From a virus, in UHGV virus genome UHGV-1963518: 16,197 bases of DNA; one strand, 5' to 3'. The position numbers and the translations under genes were made by a program. The notes under the pieces are model-generated. The model had not been told where the DNA came from, did no database searches, and saw only the letters and a list, made by a program, of their open reading frames with translations. Shown in pieces: positions 9,492 through 10,341 of the stretch. The first letter of the stretch is position 1. Each line of letters starts with the position of its first letter.

Positions 9492-10022
9492 ATGAGAAGT
9501 ACACATGGAAAAGCTGACCATCAACAGAAATTACGGTATGCCACAAAAATGGTACAGGAGACGCAACAGCAGGATAAAACCACATCGGCATATAAAGTGA
9601 TGCCCGGTAATCAGAACGCGCAGCAGAAGCCCACAGGGGCGACACCGCGGCGGCATATGACCAAACGCCAGCGCAAAAACCGCAGGCGCGTTAACCGCCT
9701 CACTGAGTTGTGGCCTGACTTATTCAGCCGGGAAGCACCGAAGCCGCTTAAGGTGGGGATATTCGACGACCTGATGCAGGATCTCGCCGTCAGGGGGCTG
9801 GCATTTGGGCCAGGGGCATTACGTGCGACGCTGGCATCTTATGCGCAGTCTCCGCGCTATTACCGCGCCCTGGTTGCTGGTGGGGCGCGTTACGACCTGA
9901 AAGGCCAGCCGTGCGGCGAGGTGACACCACAGGAACAACAGGACGCAGAAACGCGGCTGATGGCGCTGAATGAGAAGCGCAAACGTCAGCGCCGGGCAGC
10001 AAAGGAGAAAACAGGCGCATGA
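9492..10022 (+). CDS. FinO/ProQ-domain RNA-binding protein (putative RNA chaperone)
   Basis: 176 aa. PLKVGIFDDLMQDL...ALRATLASYAQSPRYYRALVAGGARYDLKGQPCGEVTPQE parallels, from memory, the ProQ N-terminal FinO domain (PLKIGIFQDL...LRLYTSSWRYL...RVDLDGNPCGEL). Basic C-terminal tail. Confidence 0.6.
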   Translation: MRSTHGKADHQQKLRYATKMVQETQQQDKTTSAYKVMPGNQNAQQKPTGATPRRHMTKRQRKNRRRVNRLTELWPDLFSREAPKPLKVGIFDDLMQDLAVRGLAFGPGALRATLASYAQSPRYYRALVAGGARYDLKGQPCGEVTPQEQQDAETRLMALNEKRKRQRRAAKEKTGA

Positions 10023-10306
10023 TTCACGACAGCAAAGCGGAAGCACTGGAAGCGCGTGGTCTGTACCGGAGAGCGGCGGCGCGGTGGGCTGAGGTCATCA
10101 TGCTGGCGAATGATGACAAGGCACGGGAACAGGCGGCAAAACGTCGCGCGGAATGTATCCACAAGGCAGCACGCCCACCAGCAAGGCAGGATAATTTCGG
10201 GGAGATGCGCGAAACCATCAGCCGGGCACATGCCGGAATGGGATTACATCAGCCCAATGGTAAGGCATTCAGGAAATACCCTGGATCGAAAAATTGCAGT
10301 CAGTGA
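10019..10306 (+). CDS. PerC-family-like transcriptional regulator
   Basis: 95 aa. Start overlaps the upstream stop, with AAGGAG upstream. N-terminal KAEALEARGLYRRAAARWAEVI resembles the PerC/Pch signature as I remember it. Followed by a terminator hairpin. Confidence 0.45.
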   Translation: MIHDSKAEALEARGLYRRAAARWAEVIMLANDDKAREQAAKRRAECIHKAARPPARQDNFGEMRETISRAHAGMGLHQPNGKAFRKYPGSKNCSQ

Positions 10307-10310
10307 CGGA

Positions 10311-10341
10311 GGCCGGGATTTTTCCCGGCCTTATTGTGTTT
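10311..10341 (+). terminator. Rho-independent terminator
   Basis: GGCCGGGA-TTTT-TCCCGGCC, a perfect 8-bp stem, followed by TTATTGTGTTT. Begins 5 nt after the stop of the PerC-like gene. Confidence 0.6.

What the first reader, a model, noticed from the sequence alone, without database searches (positions are those of the whole stretch)
10019..10341. PerC-like regulator as satellite cargo, with its own terminator
The 95-aa protein has a PerC/Pch-like N-terminus (from memory). PerC-family proteins in EPEC/EHEC activate ler and thereby the LEE. A copy on a mobilisable satellite, in a genome that also carries an IS629-like element, would link satellite mobility to virulence regulation. The family call is uncertain.
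Basis: partly seen in the sequence, partly recalled or inferred. Interest (0 to 1): 0.55.

Follow-up and report, generated by a model that had tools for sequence, protein, structure and literature searches.

The report
PerC-family gene on a phage satellite
This is a genuine PerC-family small regulator gene on a phage satellite (PICI) of an E. coli chromosome, but such genes are already annotated and published, and nothing suggests this copy switches on the LEE virulence island.

Summary
ORF 10019..10306 encodes a 95-aa protein with a full-length, high-scoring match to Pfam PerC (110.5 bits, cut-off 22.6). A strong intrinsic-terminator hairpin follows at 10309..10332. The gene lies in a 14.7-kb PICI-type satellite integrated at tRNA-Thr (thrW), next to the vat/marR island, and the window ends in an IS629 terminus. 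The protein is 100% identical to RefSeq WP_000581047.1 ("PerC family transcriptional regulator") in ABU 83972 and APEC IMT5155.

The gene has no separate start signals. Its ATG overlaps the stop of an upstream ProQ/FinO-like gene (ATGA), so the terminator ends a two-gene unit. The (SSB)-ProQ-PerC block sits in the same post-replicase slot in PICIs with different integrases, replicases and cargo, including the prototypes EcCICFT073 and EcCIEDL933 (pchE). It is a facultative module, not the AT-rich defence cargo (GapS1 here).

The LEE-activator reading is not supported. The protein is 43-50% identical to activators (PerC, PchABC), to non-effectors (PchE, EcCICFT073) and to a repressor (EcCIMP1_025). 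It branches outside the activator clade. PICI-borne PerC homologues were published in 2018 and 2025. Verdict: already known, low interest.

The parts
10019..10306 (+). perC-family gene (95 aa), identical in protein sequence to RefSeq WP_000581047.1
   Evidence: Pfam PF06069 at 110.5 bits, 1-89/90. 100% tblastn identity to the annotated genes in L001 and L021. dN/dS 0.14-0.47 against diverged homologues.
9492..10022 (+). ProQ/FinO-domain gene (176 aa). Its stop codon overlaps the perC start (ATGA), so it is the first gene of the bicistron.
   Evidence: Pfam PF04352 at 88.5 bits. NCBIfam FinO and ProQ matches are sub-threshold. The ATGA overlap is conserved in L003, L013, L025, L009 and L010.
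10309..10342 (+). Intrinsic terminator: 10-bp stem, 4-nt loop (10309..10332) and a U-rich tail. It ends the proQ-perC unit.
   Evidence: -21.6 kcal/mol, z = -4.2. Non-homologous hairpin-plus-T-run terminators also follow perC genes in Sakai Sp7, L013 and the lambdoid L017.
37..53 (+). attL core: the 3' end of tRNA-Thr (thrW); the tRNA fragment spans 1-50
   Evidence: Rfam tRNA match at 1-50. Repeat of the tRNA end found at 14714. IMT5155 layout is proA, tRNA-Thr, int.
220..1434 (+). PICI tyrosine integrase
   Evidence: Pfam Arm-DNA-bind_3, Phage_int_M and Phage_integrase.
1479..1546 (+). int-alpA RNA motif (RF02996)
   Evidence: Rfam, 45.5 bits against a gathering score of 35.8.
2555..2752 (+). 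AlpA-family regulator
   Evidence: Pfam PF05930 at 69.4 bits.
2830..3630 (+). AntA/AntB antirepressor-family gene
   Evidence: Pfam PF08346.
6209..6451 (+). DUF4222 / RgdR-family small protein
   Evidence: Pfam PF13973. 47% identical to Sakai RgdR, ECs1581.
6448..8262 (+). D5/P4-type primase-helicase (PICI replicase)
   Evidence: Pfam D5_N, DUF5906 and Pox_D5; phrog_864 at 3e-196.
8790..9008 (+). Truncated ssb remnant. An intact SSB precedes ProQ-PerC in related PICIs.
   Evidence: tblastn 78-80% to the SSB genes of L003 and L013. PGAP marks it 'SSB, missing C-terminus' in ABU 83972.
10417..11480 (+). Conserved trio downstream of the terminator: a 55-aa ORF, a 90-aa ORF and a 178-aa N-terminal HTH protein
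   Evidence: Present in 167 of 5,426 E. coli genomes.
12339..13937 (+). GapS1 anti-phage gene. This is the element's real variable cargo (about 30% GC).
   Evidence: NCBIfam NF047931 at 441.8 bits against a cut-off of 320. GC profile. Absent from all 12 related loci compared.
14714..14729 (+). attR core: a repeat of the tRNA-Thr 3' end, marking the right boundary of the ~14.7-kb PICI

Best explanation
The ORF encodes a genuine member of the PerC/Pch family of small helical regulators. It is the second gene of a translationally coupled proQ/finO-like-perC bicistron that ends in an intrinsic terminator. The bicistron occupies the post-replicase slot of a ~14.7-kb phage-inducible chromosomal island (PICI) integrated at thrW, beside the vat island of an ExPEC-type E. 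coli.

Shown: family membership, operon anatomy, PICI context, the recurrence of the (SSB)-ProQ-PerC block in PICIs with unrelated integrases, replicases and cargo, and purifying selection.

Inferred: the protein works like the studied members. PchA binds DNA at many loci and loosens H-NS/StpA/Hha silencing complexes. The related ANR proteins bind H-NS and AraC-type activators. So this protein would be a small modulator of nucleoid-protein-dependent transcription, with its own target set and sign of effect. It would be made together with the RNA-binding ProQ-like protein whenever the PICI's rightward operon is transcribed.

It is an accessory regulatory module of the satellite, not its defence cargo. 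It is most likely not a ler/LEE activator in this host.
For: Family: Pfam PerC at 110.5 bits, full length. The invariant motif G14-L-Y-R-R-A..R-W23 and C46 are conserved across 43 homologues. The protein is identical to one PGAP names 'PerC family transcriptional regulator'.

Operon: ATGA overlap with ProQ/FinO, conserved in six loci. Terminator.

PICI: int, int-alpA RNA, AlpA, AntA, DUF4222, primase, att repeats, no structural or lysis genes, 14.7 kb. It has the same site and neighbours as the experimentally mobilised EcCIMP1.

Slot conservation: perC follows the replicase (often via SSB, with or without ProQ) in Sakai Sp7/EcCIEDL933, EcCICFT073, L003-L006, L013, L025, L027 and L029. The tblastn table shows ProQ at 77-99% and PerC at 63-100% identity in elements whose integrases are only 25-37% identical.

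Live gene: dN/dS 0.14-0.47.

Mechanism by analogy: Pch de-silences H-NS complexes (PMC4764244). 41 of 43 homologues give sub-threshold ANR matches over the N-terminal helices. ANRs bind H-NS (PMC5570504). The AF2 model is an all-helical hairpin bundle.

Not a LEE activator: with literature.
Against: No experiment exists for this allele. Homology cannot give the sign of the effect or the targets, because the protein is 43-50% identical to activators, neutral members and a repressor alike. The NJ tree is built on about 90 residues without support values. Fukui et al. could not co-precipitate H-NS with PchA, so the ANR-like protein-protein mode and the Pch DNA-binding mode are not the same mechanism. 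The ANR match is below NCBIfam's cut-off (14.9 against 32 bits). The fold search found no informative structural relative. The window's host genome is not available, so the absence of LEE is inferred from close relatives. Related ProQ-PerC blocks (about 94-95% nt identity) do occur in strains named STEC, whose LEE status was not checked.
Confidence: 0.6

Rival explanations
1. One reading: the satellite carries a functional ler/LEE1 activator, so satellite transfer would switch on or boost attaching-effacing virulence in a LEE-positive recipient.
For: It is a true PerC-family member. EPEC PerC and PchABC activate LEE1 (PMC4764244, PMC11773190). Fillol-Salom 2018 states that some PICI-coded PerC homologues activate LEE. 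Related ProQ-PerC blocks occur in strains named STEC.
Against: It lies outside the PerC+PchABC branch and is only 43-46% identical to them. The tested PICI-borne homologues were inactive (PchE, EcCICFT073) or repressive (EcCIMP1_025). The identical protein sits in ABU 83972 and IMT5155, next to vat.
Confidence: 0.1
2. It acts like EcCIMP1_025 or an ANR. It is a small anti-activator or silencer that represses LEE1 and other AraC- or H-NS-controlled loci through protein-protein contacts rather than by activating promoters.
For: EcCIMP1_025 sits on a PICI at the same thrW/vat site and silences LEE1-lux. 41 of 43 family members have sub-threshold ANR_neg_reg matches over residues ~6-52. ANRs bind H-NS and AraC-type regulators (PMC5570504, PMC4983702). 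The model shows a helical hairpin with no DNA-binding fold detected.
Against: It is only 45% identical to EcCIMP1_025, no closer than to the activators. The ANR score of 14.9 bits is well under the 32-bit cut-off. The full-length PerC profile fits far better.
Confidence: 0.2
3. It is chiefly a life-cycle regulator of the satellite. Working with the co-translated ProQ/FinO-like RNA chaperone, it controls the downstream packaging or cargo genes or the interplay with the helper phage. Effects on host virulence genes would be side effects.
For: It has a fixed position between the replication module and the packaging or capsid module in many PICIs. Translational coupling to ProQ is conserved. Homologues sit at the lysis/cos-Nu1 boundary of lambdoid prophages. 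A terminator separates it from the next gene set.
Against: The block is missing from a sister PICI with otherwise the same backbone. It is far rarer than the primase type: 308 genomes against 1,155. So it cannot be essential for the PICI cycle. There are no experimental data.
Confidence: 0.15
4. It is a decaying, functionless remnant carried along with the island.
For: Neighbouring genes are decaying. The ssb is truncated here, and proQ is frameshifted in ABU 83972 and IMT5155. 54-aa truncated alleles exist in other strains.
Against: The ORF is intact and full length against the profile. dN/dS is 0.14-0.47. The protein sequence is identical across several strains.
Confidence: 0.03

Closest known systems
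PchE (ECs1588) of E. coli O157:H7 Sakai Sp7 / OI-51 / EcCIEDL933, and the EcCICFT073 PerC-like protein (WP_000233305.1)
   Same: All are PerC-family proteins of about 82-95 aa, encoded on PICI-type satellites in the same slot (DUF4222/RgdR, primase, hyp, SSB, then perC) and followed by a terminator. They fall in the same broad clade in the tree.
   Different: Only 49-50% identical. Those PICIs have no ProQ gene before perC and carry a capsid or packaging module after it. PchE is reported to repress csgD/curli and to raise flagellar expression, with little effect on LEE (PMC6265319, PMC7369912). Nothing has been tested for this allele.
EcCIMP1_025, the PerC-family gene of PICI EcCIMP1 (E. coli MP1; ISME J 2025, PMC11773190)
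   Same: A PerC-family gene on a PICI integrated at the same thrW site and followed by the same truncated-integrase, MarR, vat island. Both give weak ANR similarity.
   Different: 45% identical. In EcCIMP1 the gene lies near the right end, after P22-like ejection-protein genes, with no ProQ next to it. EcCIMP1_025 was shown to silence LEE1-lux. This allele is untested.
EPEC PerC (pMAR7/pEAF perABC) and EHEC group-1 PchA/B/C
   Same: Same Pfam family, same conserved N-terminal motif (GLYRRAA.RW), similar size.
   Different: 43% and 44-46% identical, on a separate branch. PerC is plasmid-borne after perA-perB. PchABC are 104 aa with a C-terminal extension and lie in lambdoid prophages between the lysis genes and Nu1. 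Those proteins activate LEE1 by relieving H-NS silencing (PMC4764244).
ANR (AraC negative regulator) family, e.g. Aar
   Same: Small helical regulators of horizontally acquired virulence loci. There is weak but consistent profile similarity over the N-terminal ~50 residues (41 of 43 homologues, best E 1.1e-5).
   Different: The score is below the family cut-off (14.9 against 32 bits). PerC-family proteins have an extra C-terminal helix and tail. ANRs act by binding AraC-type activators and H-NS (PMC5570504), which has not been shown for any PerC or Pch protein.

Membership tests
PerC family (Pfam PF06069) | Full-length match to the family profile above the gathering score | tested here: met
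   110.5 bits against 22.6, residues 1-89 on model positions 1-89 of 90.
PerC family (Pfam PF06069) | Small size (~80-105 aa) and the conserved N-terminal motif G-L-Y-R-R-A-x-x-R-W plus the conserved Cys | tested here: met
   95 aa. D4, E8, E11, G14, L15, Y16, R17, R18, A19, R22, W23 and C46 are invariant in a 43-sequence alignment. The same motif is present in PerC, PchABC, PchE and EcCIMP1_025.
PerC family (Pfam PF06069) | Transcriptional activation of the LEE1/ler promoter (the activity that gave the family its name) | not testable with these tools
   Needs a reporter assay. Family members differ in this activity: activators, neutral members and a repressor are all reported.
Group-1 Pch (PchA/B/C) LEE activators | Near-identity to PchA/B/C, 104 aa with the C-terminal extension | tested here: not met
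   44-46% identity, 95 aa, no extension, separate branch.
Group-1 Pch (PchA/B/C) LEE activators | Location in a lambdoid prophage downstream of the lysis cassette | tested here: not met
   This gene lies in a PICI after ProQ. The group-1 gene in EDL933 lies after Rz1.
ANR family (NCBIfam NF033650) | Score at or above the curated cut-off of 32 bits | tested here: not met
   14.9 bits, E 0.018. 41 of 43 homologues match at E<=1, but the match for this protein is far below the cut-off.
Phage-inducible chromosomal island (Gram-negative PICI) | Integrase, AlpA, primase/replicase in one orientation, ~10-15 kb, flanking att repeats, no phage structural or lysis genes | tested here: met
   int 220..1434, int-alpA RNA, AlpA 2555..2752, primase 6448..8262, att repeats at 37-53 and 14714-14729 (14.7 kb). 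No capsid, tail or lysis families were found.
Phage-inducible chromosomal island (Gram-negative PICI) | Induction and packaging by a helper phage | not testable with these tools
   Shown experimentally only for relatives (EcCIMP1, EcCICFT073, EcCIEDL933). No lambda-type cosN is present in the window.
Rho-independent terminator | Stable G+C-rich hairpin directly followed by a U-rich tract downstream of the stop codon | tested here: met
   10-bp stem with 7 G-C pairs, -21.6 kcal/mol, z = -4.2, tail TTATTGTGTTTC. Termination activity itself was not tested.

The most novel reading that the evidence does not exclude
The translationally coupled ProQ/FinO-like and PerC-like pair is a dedicated two-component regulatory module of enterobacterial PICIs. 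It would combine an RNA chaperone that recognises terminator hairpins (possibly the bicistron's own strong 3' hairpin) with a nucleoid or H-NS modulator. Together they would set the expression of the satellite's silenced AT-rich genes, or of host loci, when the island is induced. As far as my literature searches went, the pairing itself has not been described. The one paper that mentions both genes lists them in separate elements.
Probability: 0.2. Interest if true: 0.5.

Novelty: already known. Interest (0 to 1): 0.2.

Why it matters
It matters little as a discovery. The identical protein is already annotated in RefSeq. PerC homologues on E. coli PICIs have been discussed since 2005 and 2018, and one was tested in 2025. 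The useful outcome is a caution against reading 'PerC family' as 'LEE activator'. Tested members at similar sequence distance activate, ignore or silence LEE1, and this copy sits in an ExPEC-type, vat-island context. The one thread worth following is the conserved ProQ/FinO-PerC coupling, which could show how satellites combine RNA-level and nucleoid-level control.

Tried and rejected
(1) I looked for a lambda-type cosN (GGGCGGCGACCT, up to 2 mismatches), to test whether perC travels with a cos site as it appears to in lambdoid prophages. There was no match.

(2) PDB sequence search with a 43-sequence profile returned only a designed coiled coil at E 0.026, which is spurious.

(3) Foldseek of the AF2 model against the PDB gave nothing below E 3. 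The best local fits are TPR/MIT-like hairpins, so the fold gives no mechanistic lead.

An alignment query would have been the better choice.

(5) Porter et al. 2005 (PMC543544), the primary source for which homologues activate LEE1, is not held. Its results are cited second-hand from PMC6265319 and PMC11773190.

(6) I considered whether perC is strict backbone. This was rejected after AH20K059 showed the same backbone without the block and the genome counts differed.

(7) I considered whether the name 'PchABC family' on P0051 or 'PchE' on the 54-aa P0099 implies orthology with the EHEC proteins. This was rejected: the true Sakai PchE (90 aa) is only 50% identical and group-1 Pch 44-46%.

(8) I could not test LEE presence in the window's host. 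The search tool cannot be restricted to chosen genomes, and the host genome is not given.

Full report
**1. The observation**

The + strand carries an ATG-initiated ORF at 10019..10306 that encodes 95 residues. It matches Pfam PerC (PF06069) at E 5e-32 and 110.5 bits, against a gathering score of 22.6. The match covers residues 1-89 on model positions 1-89 of 90. It also matches PHROG 994 (function unknown) at 3e-35, and several PHROGs labelled 'transcriptional activator' more weakly.

A 10-bp G+C-rich hairpin at 10309..10332 starts two bases after the stop codon and is followed by TTATTGTGTTTC. It folds at -21.6 kcal/mol with z = -4.2, and none of 200 shuffles does as well. So the ORF, the family resemblance and the terminator are all real.

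**2. What surrounds it**

The window starts inside tRNA-Thr. Rfam finds the 3' part of a tRNA at 1-50. The tRNA end, TCCTATTATCGGCACCA at 37-53, recurs at 14714-14729, which delimits an element of about 14.7 kb.

Inside it, all on the + strand, are:
- a tyrosine integrase (220..1434)
- the int-alpA RNA motif (1479..1546)
- AlpA (2555..2752)
- an AntA-family antirepressor (2830..3630)
- a DUF4222/RgdR-family gene (6209..6451)
- a D5/P4-type primase (6448..8262)
- a truncated ssb (8790..9008)
- a ProQ/FinO-domain gene (9492..10022)
- the perC gene
- three small genes ending in a 178-aa HTH protein (10417..11480)
- a 30%-GC cargo segment holding a GapS1 anti-phage gene (12339..13937)

No capsid, tail or lysis families were found. 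This is the gene set and size of a Gram-negative phage-inducible chromosomal island (PICI).

To the right lie a truncated second integrase (14884..15222), a marR gene and the last 53 nt of an IS629-like element (16145..16197, 98% identical). APEC IMT5155 has the same order (proA, tRNA-Thr, PICI, truncated integrase, MarR, vat). So does E. coli MP1, where the island at this site is the experimentally mobilised PICI EcCIMP1.

**3. Anatomy of the gene**

The perC ATG overlaps the ProQ/FinO stop codon (ATGA, 10019-10022). An AGGAG lies 11 nt upstream. The same four-base overlap is present in loci whose PerC proteins are only 63-64% identical to this one (L010, L013), and in L003, L009 and L025. 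The gene therefore has no start signals of its own. The terminator closes a two-gene unit.

perC is under purifying selection, with dN/dS of 0.14-0.47 against homologues diverged by 0.26-0.38 non-synonymous changes per site. The encoded protein is 100% identical to the one PGAP annotates as 'PerC family transcriptional regulator', WP_000581047.1, in ABU 83972 and IMT5155.

**4. Cargo or backbone?**

A tblastn table of the window's proteins against 12 related loci shows the ProQ-PerC pair, usually preceded by SSB, at 77-99% (ProQ) and 63-100% (PerC) identity. This holds in islands whose integrases are only 25-37% identical and whose replicases (D5 primase, DUF927, AAA_25 helicase) and cargo differ. 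GapS1 occurs in none of them.

perC occupies the same place, just after the replicase/SSB genes and in the same orientation, in:
- Sakai Sp7 (OI-51, EcCIEDL933), where it is pchE
- EcCICFT073
- further E. coli, Salmonella and Citrobacter islands

On the other hand, the sister island of AH20K059 has the same backbone at thrW but carries an IS3 and two other genes in that slot. By megablast, the ProQ-PerC block is found in 308 of 5,426 complete E. coli genomes, always chromosomal, against 1,155 for the primase type.

The block is thus a facultative but conserved module in a fixed slot. It is distinct from the AT-rich defence hotspot that carries the island's true variable cargo.

**5. Position in the family**

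I took reference proteins from annotated records:
- EPEC PerC from pMAR7
- a 104-aa group-1 Pch from an EDL933 lambdoid prophage
- PchE and PchD from Sakai
- EcCIMP1_025
- the EcCICFT073 homologue

This protein's identities to them are 43%, 44-46%, 50%, 33%, 45% and 49% respectively. In a neighbour-joining tree, EPEC PerC and group-1 Pch join each other outside the large clade that contains this protein and PchE. The tree has no support values and rests on about 90 residues.

Context does not follow the tree cleanly. A homologue 64-66% identical to this protein (P0056) lies in lambdoid prophages between Rz/Rz1 and Nu1, which is the pchABC slot.

**6. What is known about function**

[quoted passage not shown] PchE represses csgD/curli and raises flagellar expression, and its transcript falls on SOS induction (PMC6265319, PMC7369912).

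PchA binds many chromosomal loci. It activates LEE1 only by relieving the H-NS/StpA/Hha complex, and no direct Pch-H-NS contact was found (PMC4764244).

Fillol-Salom et al. 2018 already noted that some E. coli PICIs encode PerC variants (PMC6092414). The 2025 EcCIMP1 study states that PerC-family regulators are common in Gram-negative PICIs. It reports that the EcCIEDL933 and EcCICFT073 homologues had no effect on LEE1 fusions, and that EcCIMP1_025 silences LEE1-lux in C. rodentium while EPEC perC activates it. It proposes an ANR-like mode (PMC11773190). A 2026 survey lists PerC and ProQ/FinO genes as accessory genes of Enterobacter PICIs (PMC13612085).

**7. Mechanistic clues obtained here**

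41 of 43 family members, including this protein, give a sub-threshold match to NCBIfam ANR_neg_reg over the N-terminal ~50 residues. The best E-value is 1.1e-5. This protein scores 14.9 bits against a cut-off of 32.

An AlphaFold2 model built from 43 homologues has a mean pLDDT of 77, and 81-90 over residues 1-50. It shows helices at 5-13, 16-29, 33-50 and 61-73, and a flexible tail. Foldseek against the PDB gives nothing below E 3, and the best local fits are TPR/MIT-type hairpins. No relative has a solved structure.

These results fit a small helical modulator acting on nucleoid-protein complexes. They do not distinguish DNA binding from protein binding.

**8. Verdict on the interpretation**

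The family, the satellite, the terminator and the IS629 fragment are confirmed. The proposed significance, a ler activator riding on a satellite, is not supported for this copy:
- It is no closer to the activators than to neutral or repressing members.
- It falls outside the activator branch.
- Its characterised satellite-borne relatives do not activate LEE1.
- It lies next to the vat island.
- The identical protein is found in ABU 83972 and APEC IMT5155, which to my knowledge lack the LEE. I did not test this.

The general link between PICIs, PerC homologues and LEE regulation is published. [quoted passage not shown] Its targets are unknown and its effect on LEE cannot be predicted.

**9. What remains open**

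The conserved ProQ-PerC coupling is not described in the papers I could search. FinO-domain proteins recognise intrinsic-terminator hairpins (PMC9674577), and the bicistron ends in a strong one. A functional partnership is therefore possible, though untested.

The window's host genome is not available, so its LEE status is unknown.

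Noticed in passing
window 6209..6451: The DUF4222 gene upstream of the primase is an RgdR-family member, 47% identical to Sakai ECs1581. RgdR is a published LEE/T3S activator encoded on OI-51. This copy reads L-G-D where RgdR has the functionally important R-G-D motif.
   Followed up: partly
window 9492..10022: The ProQ/FinO-domain gene is intact here (176 aa), but it is annotated as frameshifted in the two closest complete genomes, ABU 83972 and IMT5155. Its stop overlaps the perC start (ATGA), and that overlap is conserved in diverged islands.
   Followed up: partly
window 11486..11690: Five copies of AAAGTGTCAA (four direct, one inverted) lie in 200 bp directly downstream of the 178-aa HTH gene. 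They look like iterons or a packaging or regulatory binding array.
   Followed up: no
window 12339..13937: A GapS1-family anti-phage gene (NCBIfam 441.8 bits against a cut-off of 320) lies in a ~30% GC segment between a terminator-like hairpin (11938..11956) and attR. Related islands carry DUF4747, an RNA-binding-domain protein, a methyltransferase/DUF262/HEPN set, or SEFIR/TIR genes in the same slot.
   Followed up: partly
window 8790..9412: The ssb is truncated. It is followed by a 34%-GC insert with a 111-aa ORF (hydrophobic by eye, no family match). The insert occurs only in the closest relatives. Other islands have an intact 141-aa SSB directly before ProQ.
   Followed up: partly
window 14884..16197: The right flank is the start of the vat island. 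It holds a truncated integrase (Arm-binding domain only) and a marR gene on the minus strand. The marR gene has a 1-nt deletion in an A-run (a frameshift, possibly a sequencing error), and its first 6 nt are replaced by an IS629 terminus at 16145..16197.
   Followed up: partly
window 1479..1546: The Rfam int-alpA RNA motif (RF02996, 45.5 bits) lies between the integrase and the next gene.
   Followed up: no
L003 17294..17590; L013 12051..12353: Related PICIs carry a second, divergent PerC paralogue (98-100 aa) near their right end, in addition to the one after ProQ.
   Followed up: no
L017 8001..8273 (lambdoid prophage): A PerC homologue 64-66% identical to this protein lies between Rz/Rz1 and Nu1 in lambdoid prophages. 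This is the same slot as pchABC. So close relatives move between prophages and satellites.
   Followed up: partly
window 3623..5209: The 528-aa ORF listed here is probably spurious. It has no family match, and the homologous stretch of IMT5155 holds a small hypothetical gene and a YlcI/YnfO gene on the minus strand, plus an Icd-like gene on the plus strand.
   Followed up: partly
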